Source: Paraspadella gotoi
Lineage: Eukaryota; Animalia; Chaetognatha
Assembly (NCBI GenBank): GCA_051294375.1
Contig: CM119264.1
Span: 28,999,930 to 29,063,929 of the forward strand
Direction of reading: 5' to 3'
DNA length: 64,000 nt
Shown here: positions 14,979 through 64,000 of the stretch, one piece after another
Layout: every line of letters begins with the position of its first letter
Numbering within the stretch: position 1 is the first letter of the stretch
Translations under genes and position numbers: made by a program
The notes under the pieces: generated by a model
Databases searched by the model: none
What the model saw: the letters and a program-made list of their open reading frames with translations, nothing else
Told to the model about the DNA's origin: nothing

Positions 14979-15448
14979 CTCTTTCTCTCTCTCACTCGTC
15001 ATTGATTGAATCCAGTTGAGCAACTTCGATTTCAAATCGATTCAAGAAGAGAAAGAAAACAGGTAATTAAATAGATAAATTCGATTGAATCCGCACAATT
15101 AGTCGAGAACTCAGAAACTTACTTGATAAATGTATAGTTGAAAAGTTGAAATGTTTAATGTATGTATAAATATCCAATCAAACTGTACGTATGATCAGTT
15201 ACTTTCTGGCATTTGATATCAATCGTGTTTTGCATTGTAGAGATGATCAGTCTTGATCAGATGATTAGTGCAATGGTCTTTCTCTCTATCTCTCTCTCTT
15301 CATTCATCTATCTATTTATTATTAAATGTATATTAGATAAAAGAGAACAGGCTGTTAAAGAAGTTGCGGATAGCACTCTTTAGCCCCACTTAGCGCCATA
15401 TCCACATATTCTTACAGACAAAGAAAGATTTTTATTTAAATTGTTAAA

Positions 15449-16705: not shown

Positions 16706-16742
<37 letters not shown>

Positions 16743-18720: not shown

Positions 18721-18752
<32 letters not shown>

Positions 18753-22429: not shown

Positions 22430-22998
22430 TGTGGATAAGGCGCTACGTGGGCTGAAGATGACTGTCCGTAACTTCTATAACCCCCTCTAGCAGCCATGGA
22501 ACGGGTCCCTGGGCTTGGAACCAGGCTTGAGGGTCACAACTGAAAGTGTCATGATTCTAGGCGGGGTGAACCTAGGCAATGCCCGACTACATGCCCCCCA
22601 GATTGTAACCCACCCTGCACTGCTTCCAGTGGAGGGAGGGGAGCAATCTTCAGCTAGACCAAGGGCCTGGAATCAGAAGGTTGGAATACGCTCGACAGGA
22701 TGGGCTCACCAGTGTGGTTAAGGCGCTACGTGGTCTGAAGATGACTGTCCGTAACTTCTATAACCCCCTCTAGCAGCCATGGAACGGGTCCCTGGGCTTG
22801 GAACCAGGCTTGAGGGTTTGCCATGCCCCCAAGGCGGCTAACGGCCGTCCTCACGCTTCCCGCAGGGTAGGTACCGGGTTGGGATTGAACCCGATACCTA
22901 GTGGTCATGAGCTGATGGCTTTACTCAATGAGCCACCGGGTCACAACTGAAAGTGACATGATTCTAGGCGGGGTGAACCTAGGCAATGCCCAACTACA
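22430..22998 (-). mobile_element. TRIM-like element, family B, with a 124-bp deletion in the 3' LTR
   Basis: 5' LTR 22998-22713 (286 bp), internal region 22712-22592 (121 bp, PBS and PPT), 3' LTR 22591-22430 (162 bp). The termini match the 63-kb copy. Flanks TTTT/TTTC form an imperfect TSD. Confidence 0.85.
22784..22863 (-). ncRNA. Twister-like (type P5) module in the 5' LTR
   Basis: GCGGG AA GCGU GAGGA CGGCCG UUA GCC GC [P3] G [CCUGG UUCCAAGC CCAGG] GA CCCGU. It has UUA rather than UAA at the expected cleavage site and a weak P2. Confidence 0.5.
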
Positions 22999-23877: not shown

Positions 23878-24422
23878 ACTTGAGAAAGCCTTGTATAGAG
23901 AGACCTCCAGGTTAAACTCCCCGCTCTTCTCGCTGGGAGACCCACCAATTCGCCTAAACACTGAGAAAGGCTTGTATACGAGAGACCTCCAGGTTAAACT
24001 CCCGCTCTTCTCCGGACCCACCAATCGCCTACACTCGAGAAAGCTTGTATAGAGAGACCTCCAGGTTAAAACTCCTGCTCTTCTCGCGGACTCCACCAAT
24101 CGGCTCTACAACTGAGAAAGCTTGTAATAGAGAGACCTCCAGGTTAAACTCCCGCTCTTCTCCGGACCCACCAATCGCCTACACTGAGAAAGCTTGTATA
24201 GAGAGACCTCCAGGTTAAACTCCGCTCTTTCTCCGGACCCACCAATCGCCTACACTGAGAAAGCTTGTATAGAGAGACCTCCTAGGTTAAACTCCTGCTC
24301 TTCTCCGACGCCACCAACTTCGCTAAACTGAGAAAAGCTTGTATAAGAGAGACCTCAGTAAACCCGCTCTTCTCCGGACCCACCAATCGCTACACGAAAA
24401 GCTTGTATAGAGAGACCTCCAG
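23878..24422. repeat. 71-bp minisatellite, about 7.5 units (duplicate at 36042-36586)
   Basis: Unit AGAGACCTCCAGGTTAAACTCCCGCTCTTCTCCGGACCCACCAATCGCCTACACTGAGAAAGCTTGTATAG. Confidence 0.9.
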
Positions 24423-26030: not shown

Positions 26031-26067
<37 letters not shown>

Positions 26068-26227
26068 TGAGAGACAGAAAAAATGAGAGATAGAAGAAAG
26101 AGAAAGAGAGAGAGAGAAAGAAGAGAGAGAGAGAGAGAAGAGAGAAGAGAGAGAGAGAGAGCAGAGAGAGAAAGACGAGAGAGAGGAGAGAGAGAAGAGA
26201 GAGAGGAAAAGACAGAGAAAGAAAGAA

Positions 26228-26259
<32 letters not shown>

Positions 26260-27306
26260 GAAAATGAGAGACACGAGAAAAGGAGAGAGAAAATGAGAGA
26301 CAGAAAAAGAGAGAGACGAGAGGAGATGAGAGAGAGAGAGGAGAGAGAGAGAGGAGAAGAGAGAGAGAAGAGACTGAAAACGACTCACCTGCCGCGAGAG
26401 AGGAAAAAGGGGCAAGGGCAAAACCCCCGAGGGAACAGAACCAGGTGAGACACCATTTTTTCAAGACGATCTTCTTCTGATGTTTCGTCGTTGTAGTCGT
26501 CGTACGTCATCATCATCAAAAATCATCATCATCGTCGTCGTAGTCGTCGTCCATCAATATGTATTTAATCATCATCGTCGTCATCAAAATCATCGTCATC
26601 AAATCAATCATCAGCATCATCATATTATCATCATCATCATCTTTTGTTTATTTGACATTGAGGTCTCAAGTTGTTGTTTCTGTTGTTGTTGTTGGCTAAT
26701 CTGCGTCCATACCTGAACTGGTGACCTTTGTTGTTGTGCCTCACGTCAAGGATAATGACATCGTCGCGTCGGCGTCGTCGTCGGCTCGCTCGTCGTTGTA
26801 TTTTTATCCCATTCCATCGCCATATTTGGGGCAAAATAACAAATAATGTGATTCTTTCTTAGAGAGAAGAGAGAGAGAGAGGAGGGAGAGAGAGAGAGAG
26901 GAGAGAGAAGAGCCAGAGAAGAGAGAGAGAGAAGAGAGAGAGAGAGAGGAGAGAGGAGAAGAGAAGAGGAGAGAGAAGAGAGAGGGAGATTTTTTATAGC
27001 TTTTGTTCGTGTTGCAGCCAAGACAAATGTTCCCGGTTTTTCAACAACGTGGTATAAAATATTCGAAAAAGTGGAAAAAAACGTTTATGACGAATTTAAG
27101 TCTGGCATACTTTGTTCTTTAGTTTCTCTTAGTTCGAGTTCGCAGAATTCAATTATTGAGCCCTAAAAAATTATAGACAAGAGTAAACGTTCTAAAAGAA
27201 AACTATATTATCTTATGTTGAATTAAAATCGGTGAAGGAGAGTTTCGAACGACGAACGGCGACGACAATTTCTCTTCAGATGATTGACAGTTCTTTTTTT
27301 TTTATT

Positions 27307-27359
<53 letters not shown>

Positions 27360-28005
27360 GCGACTGAAAGACTCAGTGATTCCACAAAAGAAAATAAATA
27401 AAACCGACGCCGCTCTTATCGTCGTCCTCCGCCCCCTCTCACTTCCGGCGTTCCCCGGCGTTTTCCCGCCCCTTTGCCCCCCGCACAGACCGGCGTTTTT
27501 GAAAACGGGGGCGTCGTTTCGCGCGACGGAGCACAAACAATTCTGGCGCCGGAACGTTAGATGTCGCTTTTTCGCCAATTGCCCGCGCGAGAAACAAAAG
27601 GGAAAACAAAAGGCTCCGAAACGAAGTAAACAGTCGCAGGAATTAATGATATACAGGAAANNNNNNNNNNNNNNNNNNNNNNNNNGACTGTGATGGAACA
27701 CTACGGCCTGGGATGGTGTTGTTCCCCCTCTAGCCAATGGAGTGGCTGACGGATGCCGTGGACGTGAGGCGCGTGTGAATATACCGGCCACAATACTCAT
27801 ATACTTTGATTATTATGCATTTGGTACATGAAATATAAAAATGATCCATCTGAGGCCGACTATGATCGGCTCTCTCTTCTCATCTCTCTTCAACCCTTTC
27901 TCTTTCCTGGTGTGAGGACGGTAAATCCACGCGGTCGCCTCACAATGTGAGGCTTATATCCCTCGATAACTATTTAGTTCTCTTAGCACTCACCCGTTCC
28001 TATAC

Positions 28006-28394
28006 CTGTCCAAGAGCCCATCTTCGAGTTCGGTGAAAGGCCCATGGCCGATATAACCGCTTCCATTGTGATTTCGTTTTTCCGTGAAGTCGAAAGTCAA
28101 TCACGTTCCACCGCTTCGGCATCCAATCCAGTGGTATATTGCAATCGCTTTCCTATCGTTTGGATTTTTTGGTTTCGTCATTATTGGAGGACACAGCAAT
28201 GGACGAAGATTAGTCGAAAGTTCCGCATCGCGGCATTTTCGGGGTCTTACCGCAATTCATGGGATGTTTGAGAGAGAACCAAGAGCCGAATTGCTGAAGA
28301 CCGTGTTGACGGATTTTGAGGCGTCGACAGATGACGGTCACGCTTATGACGTCACGATCATCACCCAACTCAGTGATTTGAAAGAGAGTCCCAT
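28006..28394 (-). pseudogene. Frameshifted copy of exons 1-2 of the FRRS1-like gene inside the duplicated block (probably artefactual)
   Basis: Near-identical to 14309-14674 except for many 1-3 nt indels; downstream exons are absent. Confidence 0.6.
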
Positions 28395-28712
28395 TATCTC
28401 ACCGATGCAGAGGCTTTAATAAAAATTTCATTTAAATATCACTTTTCTTTTTCTTACGAAAATTAATATTACCGACAGATTGTCGTACGACTCCAATTAG
28501 TAAAAATTTTGCTAATTACTTATTTTACCTATACTAAAGATTAATTTTTTATTTGATTGGTTTTCAAACCGTTATGCGATTCGAAAACGCTCTTGACGCT
28601 CAAATCGGGCTGGCTTTGTACTCGACGGATGGCACAGGCACGAGGACCTCACTCAATCTTCTCTCGACTTCTCTCTCTCTCTCTCTCTCTTCTCTCTTCT
28701 TCTCTCTCTCTC

Positions 28713-28764
<52 letters not shown>

Positions 28765-31700
28765 CTCGTTTCTCTCTCTCACTTCGTCATTTTGATTGAA
28801 TCCAGTGACAACTTCGACTTCCAAATCGATTCAAGAAAGACGAAAGAAAACAGGGTAATTAAATAGATAAAATTCGATGAATCCCGCACAATTAGTCGGC
28901 ACGAACTCAGAAACTTATCTTTGATAAATGTTTATAGTTGAAAAGTTGAAAATGTTTAATGTATGTTATAAATATCCAAATCAAACTGCTACGTATGATT
29001 CAGTTACTTTCTGGCATTTATGATATATCAATCGTGTTTTGCATTGTAAGAGATATGATCAGTCATTGATCCAGATGATTAGTGCCAATGCGTCTTTCTT
29101 CTCTATCTCTCTCCATCTTCATTCATTCCTATCTATTTTAATTATTAAATGTATTATTTAGATAAAGAGAACAGGCTGTTAAAGAAGTGCGGATAGCACT
29201 CTTTAGCCCCACTTAGCGCAAATCCACATATTCTACAGACAAAGAACAGATTTTTATTTAAATTGTTAAATAACAAGCTTGAGGCAAAAACAATGCCGGA
29301 TCTGCCCTACGATCATTAGCGGTAAGCAGCTAATCAGATAATTAATTAATTACATATTAATTTTTTTTATTCGTGTTCAAAATCGTTTCCACTTTGTCTC
29401 GCCCTCAATCACAAAAAAACAGCAATTCTCGATCACAAATTAATTTAATTAATCTAATTACAAATAATTAATTAATACTTATTTAATTAAATAAATTAAT
29501 TAATGCAGCTTAAATTACATTTAAATGATAAAAAATAAAAAAAGCCATATCAAATAGTGAAATAAGATTGTTTTTTTAAATTTTTACTCATTTCCCACTT
29601 GCGACGATTCCATGGAAACTTATTTTCTGCTTAATTCACCACACTTTCCTATTCAACGGTACAAAATGCTGAAAGTTTCAATCGCCCCATTCACTTAATT
29701 GAGTAATTGGCTTGAAATATATTTTTTGGGGTTTTTTTTCCATTTTAACTCAAATTTGCACTTCCGGCCCGGACGGATTCCGGCTAAAAACTTTTATCTT
29801 ACCCGGGAGTGCTTTGAAGAGAGATACTATACTAATGCAAAGTTTCTGACCACCCAATGAAGAAAAAAAAAAATGAAAACCGTAATTTTTTTTTCCAAGG
29901 GCTTTAAAATATTTTTATGAAACTATAAAATTAAAAAAAAAAAAGACTAAATAATACAAAAACGTTATGTCATTAAATGTATTTAGATCTACTTTTTTTT
30001 AACGATTTTTTGCTAACTTTATTAGTTGTCGAGTCATATTAAGATAATCTTTCAAGTTAATTTTCTTTTCCAAGAGGATTATATAGGTGCTTCGCTCTTT
30101 GAGCTATCTCTCTCTCTCTCGCTCTCTCTCATCTCTCGCTCTTCATTTTCTCCTCTCTCTCTCTCTACTCTCTCTCTCCTCTCTCCTCTCTCTCTCTCTC
30201 TACTCTCTCTCTCTCTCTTAACTCATCCTTCACTCTCACTGTCTTTGTTTGTCCGGTATTCTGTTTCTGCAAGAGATTTTCCTTTTCGCGAGGAAACAAG
30301 ATTAATTTTGAATTATTCATTCGGGTAAGTATAAATACATTTTCTTGCTTACATAACCAATGAATTTCAGTCTTTTTTATTGTTAAGTGAAATGTTTTTG
30401 TACTTCTTAAATGTTTTCTTGTACTTATTTATATGCTTTACATTAATTATGTTTTTTAGGAATCTTTTTTAACTTAGGGGGACCAAATGTTAAAGAGAGA
30501 AAAGTGACAATTTTTTGTGAAATATATTATTACAATAATGATCATCTTCTTATGTATGCAGCATATTTCTTTCTATTTTTCGTTTATGTTTCGCTCCGTC
30601 GTCGTCGTCGTCGTTCGTCGTTCGCTCTGTCGTCGTTTGTTTCTCAGATTCGCGGATTAAGGATTCGACTGGACTTGGCAGCAATGAGCATTTTTTTATT
30701 TGAATTAAACAATTTCGATGCTTTTCATCGTCGTCATCGTCGTCGTCGTTCGCATCATTACTCGGCAGACCAGATTTTAAAACTATTACAAGGATTACAC
30801 GATTTGACTTCAACGGTTACCTTGATAGTCATAGATTGTGTTAAAAAGACGAAGGATGTCAATTTTATTCCTATTTTTATAATATTTTATTTTCCGGAAC
30901 TACAATAAAAAATATAATTTTTTTTTTTTAAACAATTGGCAAATTTTATAAACCGTACGTTTTTCCTCTCGCATTTATATTGCTGCCAAAATAAATTTTT
31001 AATCGGCAATAGATGTGAAGAGTAAATAATATCTTAGGTAAAATCTGGGCGTGACGCAATAAAATGCTATTCTTTTCACATTGAATTTTTTCTTCACTCC
31101 GAACTCCTTCACCATACTTTTTTCAAAAGGCCGAAAATTCAGCTTAAATTCAAAATTAGGCTTTCAAGAGTTAAGGGTGAGAGCATAAGGATTAGGAATA
31201 AGGATAGGTATAAGGATAAGATTAGGGATAAGTTTAGGGACAAGGATAGGGAGATAAGATTAGGGAGAAGGATATAGGGATAAGAATTTAGGATCTAGGA
31301 TTAAGATTATTTTAGGATTTGTAATAGTAGATTAAGGTTACATCTTTGGTGTTTAAAATTAAGCGTCAGGGCATTAGGAACAGTCCGCGGACGCTTTTGC
31401 TAAAATAGTGCAAATAATTCAACTACTTTTTTTCTTTCCCTCTTTCATAAAATTAGATTTTTCCACCTTACGTCTTGACCGAGACTCAACTTCGACTCGA
31501 CTCTTACTCGACCTGACTTGCTTTGACTCGCCTCCGCCTCGGGACTCGCCTCGACTCAACTTTTTTTGACTTGGAATCTTAATTGACTTGAATTGTTGAT
31601 TTGACTCTTGACTTTGACGTTTATTTTTAAGGTTATCTTGGTGTTAAAATTAAGGGTTTTCAGGGGATTAGGACACAGTCCGGACACTTCTTGGTAAAAT

Positions 31701-32781
31701 AGTGCAAATAATTTTAACTACTATTTTTCTTTCCCTTCTTCTAATTAGGATTTTCCACCTACGTCTTGACTAGACCTCAACATCAGACTGACTCTACTCG
31801 ACCTGACTCGCTTGAATCGACTCGACTCCGACTCGACTCGAACTCGATCCGACTCGAGCTCGACTCGCGGACGACTCGTACTGCGACTCGAACTCGACTT
31901 GACCTGACTTGCCTCGCCTGCGCCTGACTCGACTTTTGGACTTGAATCTTGACTTGACTTTTGACTTGACTTGGATTGAACTTTTGATTTAACTCTTTGA
32001 CTTGACTTTTGATATAGACTGCTTGACTTGACTTTATTGACTATTGCACTTTTGATTTGACTTTTATTTGTACTTTTGATTTGACTTCTGATTGACATAC
32101 TGACTTTTGATTTTACTCTTGACTTGGAAATTTGTACTTGACTTTTGACTTTGACTTGTTGACTTCACTTGACATTTGATCAGACTTTACTAACCCAAAA
32201 CTCCCCGAAGATGTTCTTATTTCGGGACCAAATTGACAAAGATTTCAAAGGTTGCAAACGAGAAAGGGAAATTTGAGGTCGGGATGAGGGGAAGAAAAGG
32301 AAAGGGGAAAGGAAATTGAGGTAGGGACCCACTGCAGTTTGTCAATGTCATAGGAAAAGGATCTCGGCTCTCGGCTTTTCCTTGCTCATTGTTTGGTTGA
32401 GGGTTCTCGTCTCTTTAGAGCATATCTTATATAGTTATAACATCCTTAGTAATCCCTGTGAGGAGGGAGAGAACTAAACAGTTACCATTTTTCACTTTTC
32501 ACTTCCCCCTCCTCTGCTCTCCTCTTTACGCATGCCTTTTATCTCTGTCCTTCCACCTGCCTGCCATCTCCTGCATATCCCGCCTCTCATCTTCCTCCCC
32601 CATCTTACCTGCTCCTCCCCCTCCTCTTCCTCCCCCATATCCTGCAACACCACCACTTCTTTTTCCTCCGCCACCCACAACCGGCCGTCGATTCCGCCTT
32701 CGAGAGGCAGAGAATTGTATTTTCTTTCTTCTCGCAAAATCAAAATCATCTCTTTTTCTTCTTTCTTGATTTCTTATCTTT

Positions 32782-32825
<44 letters not shown>

Positions 32826-33023: not shown

Positions 33024-34596
33024 TGAGGAGAAAGAGAGAGAGAGGCGCACCCTAGGCGAATCTAGAGGTCAGACAACAAGCGCGCCAATCGTTTTCGTCA
33101 ACTTTTTTCATTCAATTTTTTTTTTCAGCCTTCGAGAATCAGAGATGGTTCTCAGTCAGATGGTTCTCTTACGGTCTTAGTTCATTGCCAGGTGTTACAG
33201 GAAAGAATATTCTGGCCACGTTGTAGAAAACGAGACACCACATTAACCCGTTCACATGATTAATTCAATTAACCAATTAACAATTAATTAAAAAAAGTTC
33301 TTGCCTTTCCGTTGGAATGTCACGCTTGTACGCCGAGCGGCGGAACGCAACGCGAGAAAGCCAAGATAATATGCGCAAGACGAAGACGACGCACGCCAGC
33401 TTTTGCCACGCTTTGCGACACGCTAGGCCTGCGCCACGGGACTGCCCGCCAACGCGCGATATGAGGATCGTTTTTCCGTCTATGAATTTGGCGAATGTAT
33501 TACTTTCCTTCTTTTTCGTTCGAGAGTGCGCCATTGTCCTGCTGTTGATGGCGTCCTCGTTGCGTCCGTTGATGATCGGCGGGGTGGAGGGATGTGGAAG
33601 GAGGGTGGCAGGGGGCTGTGGAAGGAGGGGGGTGTGGAAAGGAGGGGGTGGAGAGGCGGGTGTGGAAGGAGGAGGGGCTGGAAGGAGGGGAGATGTGGAA
33701 AGGAGGGGGGAGGTGAGATGTGGAAGGAAGGGGGAGGGATTGCGAAGGAAGGGTGAGGATGTGGAAGGAGGGGGGAAGGGATGTGGAAGGAGGGGGAGGG
33801 ATTGTGGAGGGAAAGGGGGGGAGGATGTGGAAGGAAGGGGAGGGATGTGGAAGGAAAAGGGGGAGGGAATGTGTAAGGGAGGGGCTTGGATGGGATGTTG
33901 GAAGGATAGGGGGGAGATGTGGAAGGAGGGGGTGGAGGGATGTGGAAGAGGGGGTGGAGGCGATGTGGGTAAGGAGGGGGTGTGGAAATAAGGGGGGGAG
34001 GGATGTGGAAGGCAGGGTGAAGGGATGTGGGAAGGAAGAGGGGAAGGATGTGGTAAGGAGGGTTGGGGAGGGGTGGGGGAGGAGGAGGGGATTGGGAAGT
34101 GGAAGGAAGGCGGGAAGGGATGTGGAAGAGGGGGAGGATGTTGGAAAGGAAGGCGGGAGGGATGTTGGAAGGAGGGGTGCTGGAAGGAGGGGGGGAGGGA
34201 TTGTGGAAGGAGGGGGTTGGAGGGTGTGGAAGGAGGAGGGGATTGTGGAAGGAGGAGGGGTGAAGAATGATGATAGAAAAGTAAAGAAAAATTAAAGGGT
34301 GATAAAAAAAGGCGACGACCGGAAAAGAAAATCTCTTTTTCTCCGCGTGAACTATGAAACAAAATAATAAATAATAAACAAACAAATCAACAAAAAAAAA
34401 CTATGAGCTGTGAATACAACTTTGGTTGTTAGCACGAGTTGATACCTGATTAATTTCGTGAATCAATTCATCGCACTCACGAATGTGAAATCAAAGGAAC
34501 AAAACAAAGGACGAAATACGGGGATGCAAAAGTGCGTATATCGGGGTGACCTCTCGTCTCCCCTCGCTCTTCTCTTCTCACTCTCTTTTAATTTTT

Positions 34597-35182
34597 TGTG
34601 AGATAAGGCGCTACGGTGGGCTGAAGATGACTGTCCGTAACTTCTATATACCCCCTCTTAAGCAGCCATGGAACGGGGTACCCTGGGCTTGGAACCAGGC
34701 TTGAGGGTCACAACTGAAAGTGTCATGATTCTAGGCGGGGGAACCGTAAGGCAATGCCCGACTTACATGCCCCCCTAGATTGCTAACCCACCCTGCACTG
34801 CCCTTCCAGTGGAGGGAGGGGAGCAATCTTCAGCTAGACCGAAGGGCCTGGAATCAGAAGGTTGGAATACGGCTCGACAGGATGGGCTCACCAGTGTGGT
34901 TAAGGCGCTACGTGGTCTGAAATGACTGTCCTTTAACTTCTATAACCCCCTCTAGCAGCCATTGAACGGGTCCCTGGGCTTGGAACCAGGCTTGAGCGGT
35001 TTGCCATGCCCCAAGGCGGCTAAGCGCCGTCCTCACGCTTCCCGCCAGGGGTAGATACCCCGGTTGGGATTGAACCCGCATACCTAGTGGTCATGAGCTG
35101 ATGGCTTTACTCAATGAGCCACGGGTCACAACTGAAGTGACATGATTCTAGGCGGGTGAACCTAGGCAAGTGCCCAACTACA
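34597..35182 (-). mobile_element. Copy of the 22.4-kb family B element inside the duplicated block
   Basis: Same flanks and same LTR deletion; differs mainly by indels. Confidence 0.7.
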
Positions 35183-37899
35183 TTTCTCTTGTTTGTTCAC
35201 AACTCACAATTTGCTTCGACGGGATGTCACTCGGATATTTTTATAAAATTAGTACAACCAATATCATAATTATTCAATTCGTTTTTTAAAGTGAGTTATC
35301 TTGTCCACCATAAAACTAACTTCTCGGTAAAAAATCCAGTAAATGAACCGGAAATTAAATAAACAAAAAAAAAAAAAAAAAAACAATAGATAAGGAAAAA
35401 TTCATTTCCTGGGCCAAGCTTGCTTCCATGCTTGCTTCCAAAGCTTGCTCCACGCTCTTCGTAGTTTCTACAGTTCAAATTTCCCCTCAGCTGGCGTTTG
35501 CCACCCCTGCGACCGACAGGTTGGACTTTTAATGCGTTGCCAGTCGAGGGTGTCTTTCCCCGCATTTTTAATGATGAACATAAATTTTCGTCTAAATCAT
35601 TGATGCTTCCCGTCCTTCGCAGTTGAGGCGTAAAATCTGGAGAGGGAACAAAAAAGCGGAAAAAGAAAACGGCAGAGAGAGAGAGAGAGAGAGAGAGCGG
35701 AGAAAAAAAGAGAGAGAAAGAGAAAGACGGAGAGAGAGAGAGGAGAGAGAGAGAGGAGACGGGAGGAGAGAGAAAGAGACAAAGAGAACGAGTGAAGGAG
35801 AGAGAGAGAGAGATTTAAAAAAGAGAGAGTGAGAGAGGAGTAAAGAGAAGAAAGAAAAAATAAATGGGAAAACACCAAAAAAAAAAAAAGAGATAGGAAA
35901 TAGAAAAGAAAGGGAAAAAATAATGGGGATAAAATAAAGAAAAAGGAAAAAAAAGGAAAATCGGGGTGTGAAAAAAAAAATTTTGAATTAAAATGAGGAA
36001 TTTTTTTTATTGAGGGTGAAGAGAGGGGGTTGTGGGGGGGGCACTTGAGAAAGCCTTGTATAGAGAAGACCTCCAGGTTAAACTCCCGCTCTTCTCCGGA
36101 CCCACCAATCGCCTACAACTGAGAAAGGCTTGTATAGCAGAGACCTCCATGGTTAAACTCCCGCTCTTCTCCGGACCCACCAATCGCCTACACTGAGAAA
36201 GCTTGTATAGAGAGACCTCCAGGTTAAAACTCCTGCTCTTCTCCGGACTCACCAATCGCGCCTACACTGAGAAAGCTTGTATATAGAGAGACCTCCAGGT
36301 TAAACTCCCGCTCATTCTCCGGACCCACCAATCGCCTACACTGAGAAAGCTTGTATAAGAGAGACCTCCAGGTTAAACTCCGCTCGTTCTCCGGACCCAC
36401 CAATCGCCTACACTGAGAAAGCTTGTATAGAGAGACCTCCAGGTTAAACTCCTGCTCTTCTCCGGACCCACCAACTGCCTACAACTGAGAAAGCTTGTAT
36501 AGAGAGACCTCCAGGTTAAACTCCCGCTCTTCTCCGGACCCACCAATCGCCTACACTGAAAAAGCTTGTATAGAGAGACCTCCAGGCGGGTAAGGGGGGA
36601 GCGTTGGATCTCGGAATTTCGCTGTATTTCAGTCCGCATCATGGAGTCATCCTGTCGTGTAGAGCTCAGTCTTAGCTGCGTTGTCGAGGGCAGTAATCCT
36701 GTATCGTAGAGCGGAATTATCGCTGTATTGCGCGGCGGATTTATCACTTTATCATAGTGTCCAATCACCCTGTATTGACAGAGGGTAGTAAAGGTAGTAA
36801 TGGCTTTGCACCCTGTATCGGAAGAGGCGAGTTATGCTGTATCATAGATCGCAGTAACCCTGTATTGCCAGAGTCGAGTCACCATGTATCCTAGAGCGCA
36901 GTAACCCTGTATCGGTAGAGCCATTGTTTTTCCCGACGCCCATTTGTTTTTCCTTCGTTGTTTACCGCTTTTAAGTTCTGTGGTGACGACGGAGACGAAT
37001 CGAGACACGCCCACTTTGGCGACGTCGGACACGCCCACTTTGGCGTCTTCTTCGGTAAAGAAAATGAGGGGTAAGGATGGGAAAGGTCAAGAGTTCAAGC
37101 CCTGTATCTTTGAGTTAATGGTTTCATATTCCGCGATGAAAACGGACCAGATTTATTTTTTCGCCAATTTTGCGAATTTTTAAATACGATTAGGTGCTAT
37201 ATGTAATTAAAAAAAGTGAATAAATAAAATAAAACATTAACATAAACTTTTTTAGGCGCTTCTCTTTTTGTCATTTAACATTGTCGATATTGTTAACCGA
37301 TCATGTCACAAATTAGCATTTATTCGTCTATGAATTTAAAAAATTGCCATATTCGAACGCCGTGACGTTGCTCATCCGATATTTACCCGAAGAAGAGCTT
37401 TTATTGACCTTCTATTGACCTGTTGCTGACATGTTATTGACCTGTTTTTGACCCCTTGTCATGAACAGACATTCAGAGTTTCCTTTTTCCCTTCGACCAA
37501 AACAAAGGAAAAATAGAAAATAAAAGAAAACGGGGGGAGAAAGGAAACAGGAGGTTGTCAAGAAAACAGAAAGCAAGTGAGCAAGTGTGGGATAACCTGA
37601 GAATCGTTTTCATTTCTCTGTACTTATATTTTAGTTGAGGAGTTTAAAGTGCAAGACGTTCATTTGAAGTATGGAAATGTAGTCTAGAACAATTGAAACT
37701 CGAGCAATTGAATGTGACTATGAAATGGAATCAGATGTAGACAGCAGAGAATTTGGTTTGTTGATTTTCCCAGTTTTGCTTGAATCAATTTAAAGCGATA
37801 AAGCAAATAAAAGCGAAAAAAAAGCAAAACAAAAAGAGTAAAGAGAGAGGAGAATTGAAATAACAAAGACAAAAAGTAAATATGAAATAAGGGAGGGAA

Positions 37900-37930
<31 letters not shown>

Positions 37931-39064
37931 CGAGGAGCGAGAGGAGAGGAAGATGAGAGGGAACAAGAGAGAGGAGGAGACGAGGAGGGAGTGAGGAGAC
38001 AGGAGAGAGAGAGAGTGCGTGTACGAGAGACAGAGAGACAGAGAAAGAAAGACAGAGAAAAGAGAAGGAGCAGAAGAGAGACAGAGAGAAAGAGCAGACA
38101 GAGAAAGAGAGCAGAAGAAGAGAGAGAGAGAGGAGGAGAGAGAGAGAGAGGACGACGAAAAGAAGAAAAAGAGAGAGAGGAGAGAGAGAGAGGGAGACGA
38201 GAGAGAGGGACAAAGAACAAAGAGAGATACGAAAGAAAGGAAGAGAGAGAGAGAGGAGAGGGGGGTAGAGAAAAGGGAGAGAAAGAGAGAGAGAGAGAGG
38301 CGGAGAGAAGGAGGAGAGGAGAGAGAGGAGAGAGAGGAGAGAAGACAGAGAGAAGAAAAGAGAGAGGCGGGTGTCATGTGAGGAGAGGGCAGGAGACGAG
38401 AGAATTTGAGAGAGGCGAAAAGTAGGAGACGGGATAAATGGATGGACAGAAAAAGAGGGAGATGAGAGAGAGAGATGAGACGAGAGATGAGAGAGACGAG
38501 ACGAGAGGAGAGACTGGAACCGTCACTGCCGCGAGAGAGGAAAAAGGGGCAAGGGGCAAAACCCCTGAGGGAACAGAACCAGGTGAGACACCATTTTTTC
38601 AGAGACGATCTTCTTCTGATGTTTCGTCGTTGTAGTCGTCGTCGTCATCATCATAAAAATCATCATCATCGTCGTCGTAGTCGTCGTCATCATATGTATT
38701 AATCATCATCGTCGTCATCATCATCATCGTCATCATCATCATCAGCATCATCATCATTATCATCATCATCATCTTTGTTTTTGACATTGAGGTCTCAAGT
38801 TGTTGTTTCTGTTGTTGTTGTTGTTGCTATCTGCGTCATAACTGAAGTGACCTTGTTGTTTGCTCACGTCAAGGATAATGACATCGTCGCCGTCGCCGTC
38901 GTCGTCGTCGTCGTCGTTGTGATTTCCATTCTCGCCATTTTTGGGCAAGAATAACAAATGTGATTCTTCTTTAGAGAGAGAGAGAGAGGAGAAGAATTAG
39001 AGAGAGAGAGAAGAGAGAGAGAGAGAGATGAGAGAGAGAAGAGAGACAGACGAGAGAGAGAGAG

Positions 39065-39103
<39 letters not shown>

Positions 39104-41665
39104 ATAGCTTTTGTTCGTGTTGCAGCCAAAAATGTTCCCGGTTTTTCAACAAACGTGGTAAATATTCGAAGTGGAAAAACGTTTATTGGACAGAATTAGT
39201 CTGCATCACTTTGTCTTTAGTTTCTCTTAGTTCGAGGTTGCGAGAATTCAATTTATTGAGCCCAAAATTATAGACAAGAGTAACACGTTTCTAAAGAAAA
39301 CTATATTACTTTGAATTAAAATCGGTGAAGGAGAGTTTCGACGACGACGGCGACGACAACTTCTCTTCAGATGATTGACAGTCTTTTTTTTTATTATTTG
39401 AGAGAGAGAGAGAGAGAGAGAGAGGAGCAGAGAGAGAAGAGCAGAGAGATTGAGAGTAGAGAGATACGAGAGAGGAAGAGAGAGAGACGGCGACTGAAAG
39501 ACTCAGTGATTCCACAAAAGAAAATAAATAAAACCGACGCCGCTCTTTCGTCGTCCTCCGCCCCCCTCTCACTTCCGGCGTTCCCGGCGTTCCCGCCCCT
39601 TTGCCCCCCCGCACAGACCGGCGTCGTTTTGAAAACGGCGGCGTCGTTTCGCGCCGACGGAGCACAACAATTCGGCGCCGGAACGTTAGATGTCGCTTTT
39701 TCGCCAATTGCCCGCGCGAGAAACAAAAGGGAAAACAAAAGGCTCCCGAAGCGAAGTAAACAGTCGCAGGAATTAATGATATACAGGAAATGTGGTTTGT
39801 GGACAGTGTGGGTATGTGTGGGTGTGTGTGGGTATGTGTGGGTAGATGTTGGTATGTGGGGAGTTGTTGGATGTGTGGAAGGAATGTGGTGAGGAAGTGT
39901 AGAGTGGATTAACTGAATTGATTAAGTGTTTCACAAAATAAGCCGAATTTCGACGTGGACACGTGACTACTCAAGTGTGAAAAGTACGTATGCACGTAGT
40001 ACATAAACTTTTTAAACATTATAAAGTCTATACACATCACAAAATTATAAACTAAAAAAAATTAGTGTTATTCGTCGTTAGTCGTACGGACATACCGATT
40101 GATCGAAAACTGACGGACAGAGTTTGCTCCGCGAGTACTCGCGAGTACTCGCGGCGCAATTTAAAAAACAGGAGAGAATGAGAATTATTTATCCTTTAAT
40201 TAAAAAAAAAACAAACAAACAAAAAACCAAAAACCACGAATTTGAAAATAAAAAATAAAATTTGGCCAAATTAAATCGTCGTCATTTCGCTTCGCAGAAG
40301 AATTTTCTCAATTTCTATCGGATTTCTTTCCTTTTTTTTTTCTTCTTTTTTAATTTTTTTTCATTAATTTTTTCTCTCCCGATTGTTAAGAATTTAAAAA
40401 AAAATTATAGCGATATTTCAATGAATTTCGATATCATATGTGAAGTTAGACAAAAAAAAAACATACAAAAATATATTTATATATATACATATATTCGATT
40501 ATTTTTTTTAAGCAAAACTAAATCTCCTTATTTTCCTTAATCGCCCCAAATTATATTAAATTCGGAAATAAGTTAGTTTTAGGTTTAAAGAATAGGTAAG
40601 AGGTTAGGGTTTACCTAGTTGGTTAGGGATTAGGTTAAGGAATAGAGTTAGGAATTAGGATTAAGATTAGCATTTAAGGGTTAGGGTTAAGGATTAGGCG
40701 AGGTTAAGGATTAGAGTTAGGAATTAGGATTAAGAACAGCGTTTAAGGGTTGGGGTTAAGGATTAGGTGAGGTTAAGGATTAGAGTTAGGAATTAGGATT
40801 AAGATTAAGCATTTAAGGGTTAGGGTTAAGGATTAGGTGAGGTTAAGGATTAGAGTTAGGAATTAGGATTAAGATTAGCGTTTAAGGGTTGGGGTTAAGG
40901 ATTAGGCGAGGTTAAGGATTAGAGCTTTGGATTGGTTTCATTGGTTTAGAAATAGATTTGGGTAAAATATTAGGGTTAAAGTAGAGAACAGAATTTGGGC
41001 TTTTTTTGGAAAAGAGAGTCAAACGAAATAGTCATTGGATTTAGTTGTTGTTGTCGCATTTTCCGTCGTCCTCATCGTCGTCGTCAACATCGTCGTCGTC
41101 GTCGTCGTTTTCGTCGTCGTCATCATTGTTTTCGTCGACGTCGTCGTCATCATCGTTTTCATCGTCGTCGTCATCATCGTTTTCGTCGTCTTCGTCGTCG
41201 TCGTCATCGTCGTCAGCGTCCTAATCGTCGTCGTCATCATCGTTTACGTCGTCATCTGTTTCTACGATAAATTTAAAAAACAAAACAAAACAAAACAAAC
41301 GCATATTTTCGCAGGAAATATTAATTTGTTTAGAAAAGTCGCTCGTCAAATGAAATTGATTTATTTTTTCTTTTCCATCGATGAATGAATGAATGAATGA
41401 ACGAATGAATGAATGAATGAATGATCATCGATACGTTTATGAGTTATGGTTCGCGGATGATCTCATGAGGAAAAAAGCAGAGCGAAGTTTGACTCAACTC
41501 CCTTAGCTACTTAAGGGTCTTCGGCGCCAGGGAATCGTCGTTGTTGTTGTCGTTGTTGTTGTTGTTGTTTAGAGGCTGCTGTTGTGTTTTTTTTTGTTCG
41601 TTATTGTTTGCACGCTCTATGAAACAATAGAGTCAATTTTTATTTACGAAAACCTCTTTTCAACT

Positions 41666-41849
41666 TGTAGTCTTTCGTGACCCGGTGGCTCATTTATTAA
41701 TACCCTCAGCTCATGACCATCAGGTACTGGGATCGTTCCCCAATGTACCTAGTACCTAGTAGTAGTGAGGACGACCGTAAACCGCCTTGAGGGCGTGGAA
41801 AATCCTTCAAGTCTGGTTCCAAGCCCAGGACCCGTTCCTTGGCTGCGAG
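41666..41849 (+). mobile_element. Diverged, truncated family B LTR relic
   Basis: Starts TGTAGTC, then GTGACCCGGTGGCTCATT...GTGAGGACGACCGTAAACCGCCTTGAGGG...CTGGTTCCAAGCCCAGGACCCGTTCC. Confidence 0.8.
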
Positions 41850-42769: not shown

Positions 42770-44935
42770 TCGTCGTCTCGTCGTCGTCGCGTCGTACGTT
42801 GTCTATCATTATCTCTCTCATCAATGTACAACGTAATTTTATTTGTATATCGTCCAAGGCATAAGAGAAGCAACTTGCCGATCATTGTGTGTGCATATAT
42901 CATAAATTATTCTTCATCGTCTTCGTCAATCGTCGTCATCGTTGTCTTTGTCGTCGTCGTCTCGTAAATCGATTTTCATCATCGTAACTTCGTCTCTATC
43001 ATCGTCGTCATCCTGTTGTCATCATTATCATTGTCGTCGTCATCATCATCGTCGTCATCATCGTCGTCCTCGTAATCGTCGTTCATCGATCGTAGTCAAT
43101 CATTCTTCATCATCGTAATCGTCGTCGTCGTCGTCATCATCGTCATCATCGTCGTCATCATCGTCGTCATCTCGTCGTCCTTCGTAATCTCGTCGTCGTC
43201 CGTCTGGTCTCGGATTCGTCAGTGATGATTCGATTTTTTTTTTCCCATTAACGATTGAAGCATTCACTTTTTTCTATCAGGCAGTTCGACGGCGGGGGGG
43301 TAGTGGTTAGCGCCGCTAGCCAGTAGGTGAAGACAGGTGCTAAGCAGTCCTAAGCGGACGGGTCTGTAGCATCGAAAGGCCCCGGATAGGCATGAGCCTC
43401 TCAGTCCATCCATTGCCAATAAGTTGTCCGTCTTCCCGATCATCGTCTTTCATTGTTTCTCAAATCCATCATTTTCTTTTCTTCTTTTATTTTTTCCAAA
43501 GACGCCTACTCCGCGCCAGCCCCGCTCCTCCCTCGCGGCAGCAGCGACCCCCCCCCGCGACTCTCTCCCAACACCCCCATCACCCCTCCCAGCCAACCCT
43601 CCGTTTCTGAACACCCCACTTGCGAAAAAAGCGACGCCATTCCTTTCGTTCCATCAACATTAAACGAAATTCGTAACAAAAAACTCGGAAAAAAAAAATC
43701 TGTAAGAAGCAATAGGGCATCGAGTCCGCTTTCGATCGGTAACCAAATAGTTGATGCGATGATAACCAAATATATGCTGACGCGATGAATAACCAATAAT
43801 TGATGCGGATGATAACAAAATGACTGTTTGATGATATATCAAGATGCATTTTTTTGCGATGATAGTCATTCATTGATATGATGATAATCATTCATTTTGA
43901 TTAGATGATAGTCATTCATTGATGCGATATTAGTAATTCACTGACGCCGATGAAATCTCCTCTCTTGTCGTCGTCGTCGTCGTCGTCGTCGTCGTTGTCA
44001 TCATTATCTCTCTCATCAATGTCATCGTAATTTTAATTTGTAAATATCGTCCAAGGCATAAGGAGCAACTTTGCCATCATTGTGGTCATAATCATAATAT
44101 TCTTCATCGTCTTCGTCATCGTCGTCATCGTTGTCTTTGTCGTCGTCGTCATCGTAATCGTTTTCATCATCGTTAACTTCGTCATCTTCATCGTCGTCAT
44201 CCTTGTTGTCATCATTATCATTGTCGTCGTCATCATCATCGTCGTCATCATCGTCGTCCTCGTAATCGTCGTTCGTCCGTCATCTTCGTCAGTGATGATT
44301 CGATTTTTTTTCCCATTAACGATGAAGCATCACTTTTTCTATCAGCGTCGACGGGGGGGGGAGGTAGCAGGCGTAGCAGTAGGGTAGACAGGCTAAGCAG
44401 CCAGGCGGACGGGTGTAGATCGGAAAGGCCCGATAGGATGCTCCATCCATCCATCCATCAGTATGTCCGTCTCCCATCATCGTCTTCATGTTTCTCAATC
44501 ATCATTTTCTTTTCTCTTTTTTTTTTCCAAAGACGCTACTCGCCGCCCCGCTCCTCCCTCGCGGCAGAGCGACCCCCCCCGGACCTCTCCACACCAGCCT
44601 CCCACCACCCTCCTTCGAACACCCCACTTGCGAAAAGCGACGCCATTCCTTTCGTTCATCAACATTAACGAAATTCGTAACAAAAACTCGAAAAAAAAAT
44701 CTTAAAAGCAATAGGGATCGAGCCGCTTTCGATGGTAACCAAATATTGATGCGATGATAACCAAATATTGACGCGATGATAACCAATAATTGATGCGATG
44801 ATAACAAAATGACTGTGATGATAATCAAATGATTTTTTGCGATGATAGTCATTCATTGATATGATGATAATCATTCATTGATACGATGATAGTCATTCAT
44901 TGATGCGATATTAGTAATTCACTGACGCGATGAAT
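42770..44935 (+). repeat. About 1.1-kb tandem duplication (noisy copy then clean copy)
   Basis: 42770-43950 parallels 43960-44935 with insertion-rich differences and lies close to a 25-N gap. Confidence 0.75.
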
Positions 44936-62585: not shown

Positions 62586-63019
62586 GAATTTGTCCCATCG
62601 ACTGCTTGTCTATCTTTCTGTCTGTCCGTCGGACTGTCTGTCGTTCCTCAGCAAATTAATACATGAATAAGGTAAGAATAAAAAGTAAAATTCGTTACGA
62701 AAAAAGTTTCTATCGTCTAAATCACTGGTTTTGGGAAATCCAATGAGAAACGAGAAAGATGAATCTCCTCCAATTAGAAAGAGGCAAGGATGAGGAGGAG
62801 GAGGGGGAGGAGGAGAAGGAGGAGGAGGAGGAGGGTGAATCAGGAAATAGTTTTGTTGGAGACAAATTCAAGTTGAGACAAATCCTTATATTTTGAATTT
62901 AATTTTATGACAAAAAAGTATATAAAACAAAATACAGTACAGTTCCAAGTTGGGAAAACCCTTGTAGTCGGGCATTGCCTAAGGTTCACCCCGCCTATAA
63001 GCATGACACCTTCAGTCCT

Positions 63020-63092
63020 GACCCGGTGGCTCATTGAGTAAAGCCATCAGCTCATGACCACTCAGGTACCGGTTCAATCCCAACCCGGTACC
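63020..63092 (+). promoter_or_regulatory. tRNA-like segment with Pol III A and B boxes inside the family B LTR
   Basis: TGGCTCATTGA (A-box-like, 63027-63037), an anticodon-loop-like CTCATGA, and GGTTCAATCCC (B-box-like, 63071-63081). The segment recurs in the other full LTR copies. Confidence 0.6.
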
Positions 63093-63481
63093 TATCCTGT
63101 GGGAAGCGTGAGGACGGCCGTAAGCCTTTGGGGGCGTGGCAACCCTCAAGCCTGGTTCCAAGCCAGGACCCGTTCCATTGCTACTAAAGGGGGTTTATAG
63201 AAGTTACGGATAGTCATCTTCAGCCACTTAGCGCCTTATCCACACTGGTGAGCCCATCCTGTCGAGCGTATTCCAACTTTCTGATTCCAGGCCATGGACG
63301 TGCTGAAGATTGCTCCCCTCCTCCGGGTTACATCTGGGGGGCATGTATCGGGCATTGCCTAGGTTCACTCCGCTATAAGGCATGACACCTTCAGTCCTGA
63401 CTGCCGGTGGCTCATTGAGTAAAGCCATCAGCTCATGACCACTAGATACCGGGCTTCAATCCCAACTCCGATACCTACCCT

Positions 63482-63561
63482 GTGGGAAGCGTGAGGACGG
63501 CCGTAAGCCGACCTTGGGGGCGTGGCAAACCCTCAAGCCTGGTTCCAAGCCCAGGACCCGT
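63482..63561 (+). ncRNA. Twister-like (type P5) module in the 3' LTR of family B; a second copy at 63099-63173
   Basis: GUGGG AA GCGU GAGGA CGGCCG UAA GCC GAC [CUUGGGGG..CCCUCAAG] G [CCUGG UUCCAAGC CCAGG] A CCCGU. T1 is UCC/GGA. P2 and T2 are imperfect in this copy. Confidence 0.5.
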
Positions 63562-64000
63562 TCCATTGCTACTAAAGGGGGTTATAGAAGTTACGGATAG
63601 TCATCTTCCAGCCACTTAGCGCCTTATTCCACACCCTTGGATTTTAAGATATATTTAATTAATTTTAAACAAAGCAGTATTTTAAACATAACTGTGACTT
63701 AACAGCTCAAATACCAAAAAAAAATTCAATCTCCCAACCGATTTTGACCCTCGAACAAAAAAAAAAAAAGAAAAAAAGAAAAAAAAAGGGAAAAAAGAAA
63801 AACCTTGAAAAATGGGCGTAAAAGGAGGAGGAGGAGGAGAAGGAGGAGGAGGAGGAAGGAGGGATTTCGGGTAATCTTTCGGAGGTGGACATTTTGTTTG
63901 CAGGTCAACCGTGAAATCGGCCCACGGACAAGATCCATCCAGGATGCGAGATTAAAGACAAGCTTGGGATCTCGCGGGATTTGGGAGGGATTCGTGGCGG

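What the first reader, a model, noticed from the sequence alone, without database searches (positions are those of the whole stretch)
62963..63633. Candidate animal LTR retrozyme: TRIM whose LTRs hold a tRNA-like Pol III promoter and a twister-like module
Seen: two TG..CA LTRs of about 285 bp, a 99-bp non-coding interior with PBS and PPT, and a 4-bp TSD (CCCT). Each LTR has A/B boxes followed by a twister-like fold, and the sense strand has no TTTT terminator. Known: plant LTR retrozymes carry hammerheads in their LTRs, make circRNA and are thought to be moved by Ty3/gypsy machinery; Cassandra TRIMs carry 5S Pol III promoters; described metazoan retrozymes are non-LTR hammerhead repeats. Inference: Pol III transcription plus cleavage in both LTRs would release a monomer of about 381 nt (407 nt for the 22-kb subtype) that could circularise and be reverse-transcribed in trans. 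I know of no description of this combination but cannot search.
Basis: partly seen in the sequence, partly recalled or inferred. Interest (0 to 1): 0.9.

Follow-up and report, generated by a model that had tools for sequence, protein, structure and literature searches.

The report
Animal mini-retrotransposon with paired twister ribozymes
A small, protein-less jumping gene repeated in what is likely an animal genome carries in each end-repeat a tRNA-like probable promoter followed by a twister-type RNA fold that is predicted to cut itself, likely only when the two ends pair, which would give animals a design so far described for plant elements with a different ribozyme.

Summary
The anatomy is real: LTR 282 bp, 99-bp interior with PBS and PPT, LTR 290 bp, 4-bp TSD CCCT, in a highly repeated family of a likely animal host. 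A TRIM with tRNA-like LTRs and 4-bp TSD is known: Helenus (Kojima 2024). The extra is a twister core 3' of the B box, in type-P5 order. It is non-random (0 of 40,000 shuffles), cmscan aligns a sister copy to Twister-P5 in the same register (17.5 bits, below the 37.6 threshold), and its 26 core bases are unchanged in that diverged copy (p 0.0007). It deviates: P2 is weak and P1 shrinks to one pair capped by the palindrome GGCC, as in dimer-dependent amphibian hammerheads, so the two LTRs likely form a double twister. Read by eye, two published wasp Helenus LTRs hold an unreported type III hammerhead in the same slot. Against: both LTRs of this copy carry 1-2-base indels in the core (noisy assembly), one sister locus lacks the catalytic A, the monomer is no more stable than shuffles, and cleavage, Pol III use and circles are untested. 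New variant of a known kind.

The parts
62959..62962 (+). left target-site duplication CCCT
62963..63244 (+). 5' LTR (282 bp, TG..CA)
63020..63093 (+). degenerate tRNA-like segment; A box 63027-63038, anticodon-loop-like CTCATGA 63051-63057, B box 63071-63081; not called by ARAGORN
   Evidence: box motifs as in PMC10886601 section 3.5
63107..63167 (+). twister-like module, type-P5 order, 5' LTR copy: GA-GGA 63110-63114, palindrome CGGCCG 63115-63120, predicted cut after U63121, P3, P4/L4 63152-63167; T2 and P4 carry small deletions as assembled
63246..63255 (+). PBS-like TGGTGAGCCC; 9 of 10 bases pair with the honeybee tRNA-Trp 3' end printed in Kojima Fig. S2 (by eye)
63245..63343 (+). 99-bp non-coding interior
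   Evidence: the one 75-codon frame across it has no Pfam match
63336..63343 (+). PPT-like GGGGGGCA
63344..63633 (+). 3' LTR (290 bp, TG..CA)
63408..63463 (+). A box 63408-63419 and B box (one extra base) of the 3' LTR
63490..63555 (+). twister-like module, 3' LTR copy: GA-GGA 63493-63497, palindrome 63498-63503, predicted cut after U63504, P3 63513-63537, P4/L4 63538-63555; extra A at 63511 inside T2
63634..63637 (+). right target-site duplication CCCT; first TTTT at 63642
22430..22998 (-). second family member (interior 121 bp; UAA read as UUA; 3' LTR deleted for about positions 60-180; flanks GAAA/AAAA)
34597..35182 (-). duplicate of the 22-kb locus with the same flanks (one insertion event, not two)
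41675..41846 (+). diverged LTR fragment (77% identity) with an intact twister core 41764-41828; linker CGACCG is not palindromic
15354..15406 (+). LTR 3'-end remnant

Best explanation
This is a copy of a repeated, non-coding Helenus-type miniature LTR retrotransposon whose LTRs each hold a twister-derived RNA module that likely self-cleaves, likely as a double ribozyme formed when the palindromes of the two LTRs pair, and would thereby release a unit-length RNA of about 380 nt. Steps: (1) shown in sequence: LTR-PBS-interior-PPT-LTR with 4-bp TSD and A/B boxes. (2) Inferred: Pol III starts at the tRNA-like segment of the 5' LTR and, meeting no T4, runs through both modules. (3) Predicted: CGGCCG of one LTR pairs with CGGCCG of the other, giving both cores a shared 6-8-bp P1; the 5' LTR's UAA, P3 and P4 work with the 3' LTR's GA-GGA arm and vice versa; cuts fall after U63121 and U63504. 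(4) Inferred by analogy with plant retrozymes: the monomer is ligated into a circle, in which the lone module has a one-pair P1 and would be nearly silent, and is reverse-transcribed from a tRNA (Trp-like) primer by Gypsy proteins in trans. The copy at hand is damaged or mis-assembled in both cores.
For: Descriptor from the published twister layout (Table 1, consensus): 0 of 40,000 dinucleotide shuffles, both strands, for each of two copies. cmscan aligns 41764-41828 to Twister-P5 model positions 1-58 in the same register. T1 is Watson-Crick GGA/UCC, the combination seen in all 4 Rfam-passing P5 twisters of L005 and L016; L016 has the same CUGG/CCAG P4; one L005 copy and L016 have a 3-nt P2 strand. 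Core 26 of 26 identical between the 63-kb 3' LTR and the diverged fragment against 98 of 134 elsewhere (Fisher p 0.0007). P3 and P4 form with probability 0.63-0.86 and the inter-LTR 8-bp helix is in the minimum-energy fold of the two-LTR precursor (0.44); duplex -10.7 (6 bp) against +4.1 kcal/mol for the lone C(GGCC)G hairpin. [quoted passage not shown] Natural twisters tolerate P1 and P2 imperfections (PMC11662667). By eye, Helenus-2_SyJa and Helenus-2_SyUm LTRs hold a full type III hammerhead in the same slot, lack the T run and use a Trp PBS. Host: all 5 species-named clusters among 10 looked up are animals.
Against: Below Rfam's threshold in all three stretches tested (15.5, 15.5, 17.5 bits against 37.6). 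P2 is two pairs plus a mismatch, with 3 bases where the consensus has 4. Neither LTR of the focal copy passes the strict descriptor; the 22/35-kb locus has the general-acid A replaced by U, which abolished activity in 5 of 5 natural twisters, and against that copy the conservation test gives only p 0.05. The diverged fragment keeps the core but breaks the palindrome (CGACCG). A palindromic 4-base loop arises by chance with p about 0.06 once the outer C-G is fixed, and any palindrome in a direct repeat pairs between copies. The monomer folds no better than shuffles (124 and 131 of 150 fold as well). The descriptor was written after seeing the element and relaxed for P1 and P2. Only three independent loci with the module could be compared; covariation could not be measured. 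Cleavage, transcription and circles are untested.
Confidence: 0.5

Rival explanations
1. The twister cleaves as a monomer (P1 dispensable) and mainly replaces the Pol III terminator: a cut in the 3' LTR makes the RNA 3' end, incomplete cutting in the 5' LTR leaves a terminal redundancy of about 100 nt, and the element transposes by the ordinary LTR route without a circle.
For: P1 imperfections are tolerated and inefficient cleavage without P1 is reported. 51 of 56 Helenus LTRs read by eye in supplement parts 7-9 have a run of 4 or more T 3' of the B box; the two hammerhead-bearing ones and this element do not. The monomer lacks retrozyme-like stability. The 41.7-kb fragment keeps the core without the palindrome.
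Against: The lone C(GGCC)G hairpin is unfavourable (+4.1 kcal/mol) and P2 is weak too; the palindrome is intact in both 63-kb LTRs, the 22-kb LTR and the read consensus ends printed for X1, X3, X5 and X9.
Confidence: 0.22
2. Ordinary Helenus TRIM with a captured but now inactive twister relic (for instance from a Penelope-like or RTE element); the family moves without cleavage.
For: Sub-threshold Rfam scores; weak P1 and P2; one of three loci lacks the catalytic A; focal copy imperfect. An active ribozyme in the 5' LTR would destroy the terminal redundancy that ordinary LTR reverse transcription needs (established mechanism).
Against: Core unchanged across about 25% divergence; of the 40 best-supported family variants shown (of 140), none falls on GA-GGA, UAA, P4 or L4; a second ribozyme class sits in the same slot of other Helenus LTRs (by eye).
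Confidence: 0.2
3. The module is a type-P1 twister that uses the downstream GAGGG found about 20 nt after P4 in the majority subtype, not the upstream GAGGA.
For: The 22-kb subtype and most reads have GAGGG there; UCC can pair with GGG through a wobble, as in Sma-1-119.
Against: No P2 forms in register; both LTRs of the 63-kb subtype read AAGGG and the 41.7-kb fragment ends before it; the upstream GAGGA is present in all three subtypes and gives Watson-Crick T1; cmscan picks the P5 register.
Confidence: 0.05
4. The twister likeness is chance.
For: Rfam E-values 0.17-1.8 only; descriptor tuned after seeing the sequence.
Against: 0 of 40,000 shuffles per copy although 229 and 83 held the L4 motif alone; a pattern taken from the element retrieved Rfam-passing twisters in 2 of 16 metagenome loci.
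Confidence: 0.03

Closest known systems
Helenus (TRIMp3), animal type; Kojima 2024, PMC10886601; nearest by eye Helenus-2_SyJa and Helenus-2_SyUm of Synergus wasps
   Same: Short non-coding TRIM, tRNA-like A/B boxes in both LTRs, PBS, PPT, 4-bp TSD; with the two Synergus families also a long LTR extension 3' of the B box, no T run, a Trp-type PBS and short shared motifs near the LTR 3' end.
   Different: No ribozyme is described for any Helenus (main text: 'twister' 0, 'self-cleav' 0). The twister loop motif GGTTCCAAGCC is absent from the supplement (70-letter line breaks could hide it). The Synergus slot holds a hammerhead, this one a twister. A box ends TGAG, not YGG.
Plant LTR retrozymes; Cervera et al. 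2016, PMC4918200
   Same: Ribozyme motif in each LTR of a non-coding element with PBS, PPT and 4-bp TSD; predicted double cleavage to a unit-length RNA.
   Different: Type III hammerhead, tRNA-Met PBS, 600-1000-nt highly paired circles, plants; here twister-like, Trp-like PBS, about 380 nt, no excess stability, tRNA-type promoter, likely animal; circles not shown.
Type-P5 twister ribozyme, Rfam RF02684
   Same: Strand order, GA-GGA/UCC T1, UAA, GC T2, P4 with U-UCC-AAGC loop.
   Different: P1 reduced to one pair with a palindromic tetraloop, P2 two pairs plus mismatch, P3 present (absent from the Rfam model); scores below threshold.
Dimeric type I hammerheads of amphibian non-LTR retrozymes and Penelope-like elements (PMC7229834, PMC6765202)
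   Same: One-pair stem with palindromic tetraloop that becomes stable when two copies pair.
   Different: Hammerhead, tandem non-LTR repeats without PBS or PPT; activity measured there, predicted here.
Schistosoma twister T-variants of Perere-3 (PMC8501958) and Schistosoma SINE-like promoter-plus-hammerhead repeats (PMC6765202)
   Same: Twister with weak P1 in an animal retroelement; internal promoter followed by a ribozyme.
   Different: Non-LTR elements; type-P1 twister at the 5' end with P1 completed by the target site.

Membership tests
Helenus (animal) | Non-coding TRIM under about 1 kb with two LTRs | tested here: met
   671 bp, LTRs 282 and 290 bp; no Pfam match for the frame across the interior
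Helenus (animal) | tRNA-like sequence in the LTR: TRGCY in box A, GGTTC in box B | tested here: met
   TGGCT and GGTTC; 3' LTR B box has one extra base; YGG, which 'most' Helenus have, is absent; ARAGORN calls no tRNA
Helenus (animal) | PBS complementary to a tRNA 3' end | tested here: met
   9 of 10 bases against honeybee tRNA-Trp in Fig. S2, by eye; the host's own tRNA was not available
Helenus (animal) | PPT before the 3' LTR | tested here: met
   GGGGGGCA in both subtypes
Helenus (animal) | 4-bp TSD | tested here: met
   CCCT/CCCT at the focal locus; 3 of 4 at the only other full locus
Helenus (animal) | Animal host | tested here: inconclusive
   A neighbouring ferric-chelate-reductase-like exon hits beetle, mite, midge, crinoid and snail proteins at 36-50% identity, E 1e-4 to 9e-4; no non-animal species name among 10 looked up; weak scores
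Helenus (animal) | Pol III transcription and Gypsy partner | not testable with these tools
   No genome held; also unproven for Helenus itself
Twister type-P5 (RF02684) | General base G-A and 3-bp T1 with L4 | tested here: met
   GA-GGA with UCC in all 5 LTR copies that contain this part
Twister type-P5 (RF02684) | P4 stem with U-NNN-AAGC loop | tested here: met
   one base missing in the focal 5' LTR
Twister type-P5 (RF02684) | U-A-A cleavage site | tested here: inconclusive
   Present in 63-kb LTRs, 41.7-kb fragment and read consensus ends; UUA at the 22/35-kb locus
Twister type-P5 (RF02684) | GC for T2 after P2 | tested here: inconclusive
   Intact at 22, 35 and 41.7 kb and in most reads; disturbed by indels in both focal LTRs
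Twister type-P5 (RF02684) | 4-bp P2 | tested here: not met
   3-base strand, two pairs plus a mismatch
Twister type-P5 (RF02684) | P1 stem-loop of two or more pairs | tested here: not met
   C(GGCC)G in cis; 6-8 bp only between two copies
Twister type-P5 (RF02684) | Rfam gathering score 37.6 | tested here: not met
   15.5, 15.5, 17.5 bits
Twister type-P5 (RF02684) | Site-specific self-cleavage | not testable with these tools
   bench assay needed
LTR retrozyme (plant) | Type III hammerhead in each LTR | tested here: not met
   No hammerhead family matched
LTR retrozyme (plant) | tRNA-Met PBS | tested here: not met
   PBS is Trp-like (definition)
LTR retrozyme (plant) | 4-bp TSD, PBS, PPT, non-coding interior | tested here: met
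LTR retrozyme (plant) | Highly self-paired monomer (over 70% paired) | tested here: not met
   66% paired, z +0.9 and +1.2 on the indel-bearing focal copy
LTR retrozyme (plant) | Abundant circular RNA | not testable with these tools
   only assembled contigs were available

The most novel reading that the evidence does not exclude
Animals have their own LTR retrozymes: Pol III-driven Helenus TRIMs with an exchangeable ribozyme slot behind the tRNA-like promoter, filled by a type III hammerhead in Synergus wasps and here by an obligate double twister that cuts only when both LTRs are in one transcript, releasing a 380-nt monomer that persists as a circle and is reverse-transcribed by Gypsy proteins.
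Probability: 0.33. Interest if true: 0.85.

Novelty: new variant of a known kind. Interest (0 to 1): 0.72.

Why it matters
Passages I read place LTR retrozymes in plants with type III hammerheads and say metazoan retrozymes lack LTRs, PBS and PPT. An animal LTR element with a ribozyme in each LTR, of another class and behind a tRNA-type promoter, would show that the design arose independently and that the ribozyme class is exchangeable. A twister that needs two LTRs would be a natural device that processes only full-length transcripts and spares solo LTRs and the circle. It gives twister, for which few natural functions are known, a second retroelement role. Both claims are cheap to test in vitro, and the hammerhead in the published wasp consensus sequences can be tested at once by anyone.

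Tried and rejected
No genome is held, so copy number, TSD statistics, tandem arrays and a Gypsy partner could not be searched. No RNA holder listed; run X9 is only guessed to be RNA and its 483 laid contigs say nothing on transcription. Family-wide variation in the core is seen only through 40 of 140 rows. Rfam at gathering threshold: 0 hits in the window. Homologues of the element outside the host: none in viral contigs, genome contigs (the one hit, L032, is a chance match without P4/L4) or among 16 metagenome loci. Natural P5 twisters with a short palindromic P1: none among 7 genome and 8 viral loci. A P5 stem GUGGG/CCCGU and an inhibitory pairing CCGUAA/UUACGG that I first proposed have probability 0.0 in the precursor ensemble (the same values were off register for the 3' LTR and were redone). 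Absence of TTTT as evidence: not significant by shuffle. Word-index protein searches for the host gene found nothing. 150 of 231 window frames scanned and 11 gave no retroelement domain. No earlier scan finding resembles the LTR by sequence or lies in this genome.

Full report
Observation. The element spans 62963-63633: 5' LTR 282 bp, interior 99 bp, 3' LTR 290 bp, both LTRs TG..CA, flanked by CCCT on both sides. The LTRs differ by 5 mismatches and 18 gap columns. The window is indel-noisy: kilobase blocks that occur twice (22.1-27.4 kb and 34.3-39.4 kb; 14.9-18.8 kb and 28.7-32.8 kb) differ by about 10%, most of it gaps (435 gap columns in 5407), and 300 bp of duplicated flank show 0 mismatches and 8 gaps. 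One- or two-base indels in any single copy are therefore weak evidence. Other family members in the window: 22430-22998 and 34597-35182 (minus strand, same flanks, so one insertion), a diverged fragment at 41675-41846 and an LTR end at 15354-15406. The family is highly repeated in the host: 913, 6130, 2391 and 483 contigs of four runs from three studies were laid on the 801 bases, with almost no cover on the flanks (depth is not a copy number, and X1/X3 may be the source sample). No genome is held.

Host. A broken ferric-chelate-reductase-like gene (DOMON and cytochrome b561 pieces) lies at about 9.5-14.7 kb. A 66-residue piece gave 15 weak hits; of 10 looked up, the 5 clusters with species names are a beetle, a mite, a midge, a crinoid and a snail, at 36-50% identity. 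An animal host is likely; the phylum is unknown.

The TRIM part is known. Kojima 2024 (PMC10886601; I read parts 1-4 of 6 of the main text, searched all of it, and read supplement parts 6-10 of 11 plus motif searches of the whole file) defines Helenus: short non-coding TRIMs with tRNA-like LTRs, PBS, PPT and, in animals, 4-bp TSDs, inferred to use Pol III and Gypsy proteins. This element has TGGCT in box A, GGTTC in box B, a PBS that pairs at 9 of 10 bases with the honeybee tRNA-Trp end printed in Fig. S2 (by eye), a G-rich PPT and a 4-bp TSD. I file it as a Helenus-type TRIM. The paper's main text has no 'twister' or 'self-cleav', and 'ribozyme' only in a reference.

The twister part. Reading 5' to 3' after the B box: P2 3' strand CGU, G-A, GGA, CGGCCG, U-A-A, RCC, GC, P3 (CUUGGGGG/CCCUCAAG), P4 (CCUGG/CCAGG) with loop U-UCC-AA-GC. 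This is the type-P5 order, with GGA pairing with UCC (T1) and GC with GC (T2). A descriptor based on the published layout (PMC8501958 Table 1, passages; Rfam consensus), relaxed to allow a 3- or 4-base P2 with two or more pairs and any 2-30 bases for P1, matched none of 40,000 dinucleotide shuffles of either the 22-kb LTR or the 41.7-kb fragment, though 229 and 83 shuffles held the L4 motif. I wrote it after seeing the element; as controls it finds 2 of the 3 twisters in L005 and the one in L016, and it also gives one off-register match in the 35-kb copy. Independently, cmscan aligns 41764-41828 to Twister-P5 positions 1-58 in this register at 17.5 bits, E 0.17, below the 37.6 threshold; the 63-kb and 22-kb copies score 15.5 on partial alignments. 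A gapped pattern from the element found 16 metagenome loci, 2 of which hold 4 Rfam-passing P5 twisters; all 4 have GAGGA with UUCC, L016 has the same CUGG/CCAG, and two have a 3-base P2 strand. Between the 63-kb 3' LTR and the diverged fragment 26 of 26 core bases are identical against 98 of 134 elsewhere (p 0.0007); P3 keeps its pairs through two changes; with the 22-kb LTR as reference the count is 24 of 26 against 100 of 131 (p 0.05). Among the 40 best-supported family variants shown (of 140), those in the 3' module are two, both in the P3 loop; six rows fall in the 5' module at low depth beside its deletion, including G to A (pair kept) and G to C (pair lost) at the first P2 base; none touches GA-GGA, UAA, P4 or L4.

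Defects. Neither focal LTR passes the strict descriptor: the 5' copy lacks about two bases at T2 and one at P4; the 3' copy has an extra A at 63511 that most reads lack (123,295 of 139,331 depth units in X3). I cannot tell assembly error from decay. The 22/35-kb locus reads UUA; A-to-U or A-to-C at the general acid abolished activity in 5 of 5 natural twisters, whereas P1, P2 and P4 imperfections were tolerated (PMC11662667, abstract and section 32 read). Its 3' LTR has also lost the promoter and the 5' half of the module. P2 is two pairs and a mismatch in every copy.

Mechanism. P1 cannot form normally: CGG and CCG abut, leaving one C-G pair around GGCC (+4.1 kcal/mol in isolation), but CGGCCG is a palindrome (duplex -10.7; -14.1 for ACGGCCGU). 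In the two-LTR precursor (63019-63645) the inter-LTR helix is in the minimum-energy fold with probability about 0.44, P3 and P4 of the 3' LTR at 0.63-0.86; pseudoknots are not modelled. Amphibian hammerheads with one pair capped by a palindromic tetraloop cleave poorly alone and well as dimers (PMC7229834, passages; PMC6765202, passages). I therefore predict a double twister: the 5' LTR's UAA-P3-P4 with the 3' LTR's GA-GGA arm, and the reverse, sharing one P1. Cuts after U63121 and U63504 would free 383 nt. Once ligated, the single module would be nearly silent, keeping a circle closed. Ligation, circle, Trp priming and Gypsy help are inferred from plant retrozymes (PMC4918200, passages; PMC7761336, passages). 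Caveats: the palindrome has a chance of about 0.06 given the outer pair; the diverged fragment breaks it; the monomer is 66% paired and no more stable than shuffles.

An independent pointer. In Kojima's supplement, Helenus-2_SyJa-LTR and Helenus-2_SyUm-LTR (Synergus wasps) carry, read by eye, a complete type III hammerhead just 3' of the B box: GUC triplet, 7-bp stem I, CUGAUGA, 4-bp stem II, GAAAC, 6-bp stem III and 12 complementary bases between loops I and II. Of 8 CTGATGA hits in the file only these two have that context. Both use a Trp PBS, have a long LTR tail and lack the T run that 51 of the 56 LTRs in parts 7-9 show 3' of the B box (by-eye count; the other three without it are scallop families); this element lacks it too. 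Short motifs near their LTR 3' end resemble ours. None of this was computed, so homology is open. Two ribozyme classes in one slot is the usual sign that cleavage itself is selected. A 2020 review mentions insect elements with type III hammerheads as work in preparation, so that half may be known to specialists.

Novelty. Searches of the held library returned no paper on a ribozyme in Helenus or any animal TRIM, or on a natural dimeric twister. Passages of 10.64898/2026.07.22.740005 (its supplements not seen), PMC7936874 and PMC7229834 assign LTR retrozymes to plants; PMC13570524 lists Helenus and retrozymes apart; PMC10085705 reports only P1, P3 and P5 twisters. Subscription journals, Repbase and Dfam were not searchable, and Roth et al. 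2014 was not read. Earlier AI notes of this scan describe palindrome-armed P5 twisters in Naiad elements of other genomes; I had noted the dimer idea before, did not test theirs and do not count it as support, but it suggests a possible donor of the module.

Verdict. It is a Helenus-type TRIM (about 0.9). It carries a twister-derived module (about 0.9) that fails three formal membership tests and is predicted to work like one (about 0.7 in the founders of the family). Dimer-dependent double cleavage is the best single mechanism (0.5); the full retrozyme cycle with a circle about 0.33. New variant of a known kind; interest 0.72.

Noticed in passing
PMC10886601 supplement, Helenus-2_SyJa-LTR and Helenus-2_SyUm-LTR: Complete type III hammerhead with a 12-base loop-loop pairing just 3' of the B box, not mentioned in the paper; read by eye only.
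   Followed up: partly
window 9544-14695 (-), partial inverted duplicate at 27686-28739 (+): Frameshifted ferric-chelate-reductase-like gene (DOMON and cytochrome b561 pieces); best hits are animal proteins at 36-50% identity.
   Followed up: partly
window 22145-27356 and 34283-39449; 14922-18753 and 28707-32786; 43033-43954 and 44115-44934: Kilobase duplicated blocks differing mostly by gaps: unpolished long-read sequence, possibly assembly duplication.
   Followed up: partly
window 23877-24422 and 36042-36586: Tandem repeat of a 71-72-base unit inside the duplicated block.
   Followed up: no
window 6428-6882: 15-base tandem repeat that reads as a Gly-rich or Pro-rich peptide repeat, with a similar repeat up to about 7350; possibly a structural-protein exon.
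   Followed up: no
L005 173-226, 699-753, 1262-1314 (-): Three type-P5 twisters about 530-560 bases apart on one metagenome contig.
   Followed up: no
L016 699-772 (-); L027 479-543; L026 507-567; L028 510-567; L031 248-305: Further twisters (P5 in L016 and L027; P1-type below Rfam's threshold in L026, L028, L031) in metagenome and viral contigs.
   Followed up: no
window 63200-63209 and 63587-63596: UUACGG downstream of the module is complementary to the cleavage-site CCGUAA, but the pairing has probability 0.0 in the predicted ensembles.
   Followed up: yes
window 63567-63575 (and 63179-63187): The 63-kb subtype differs from most reads at three bases shared by both LTRs, removing a downstream GAGGG, and has a 22-base shorter interior: a distinct subfamily.
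   Followed up: partly
window 22532-22534 (-) and 34705-34708 (-): The 3' LTR deletion of the 22/35-kb locus joins two short similar motifs and removes the promoter and the 5' half of the twister.
   Followed up: no
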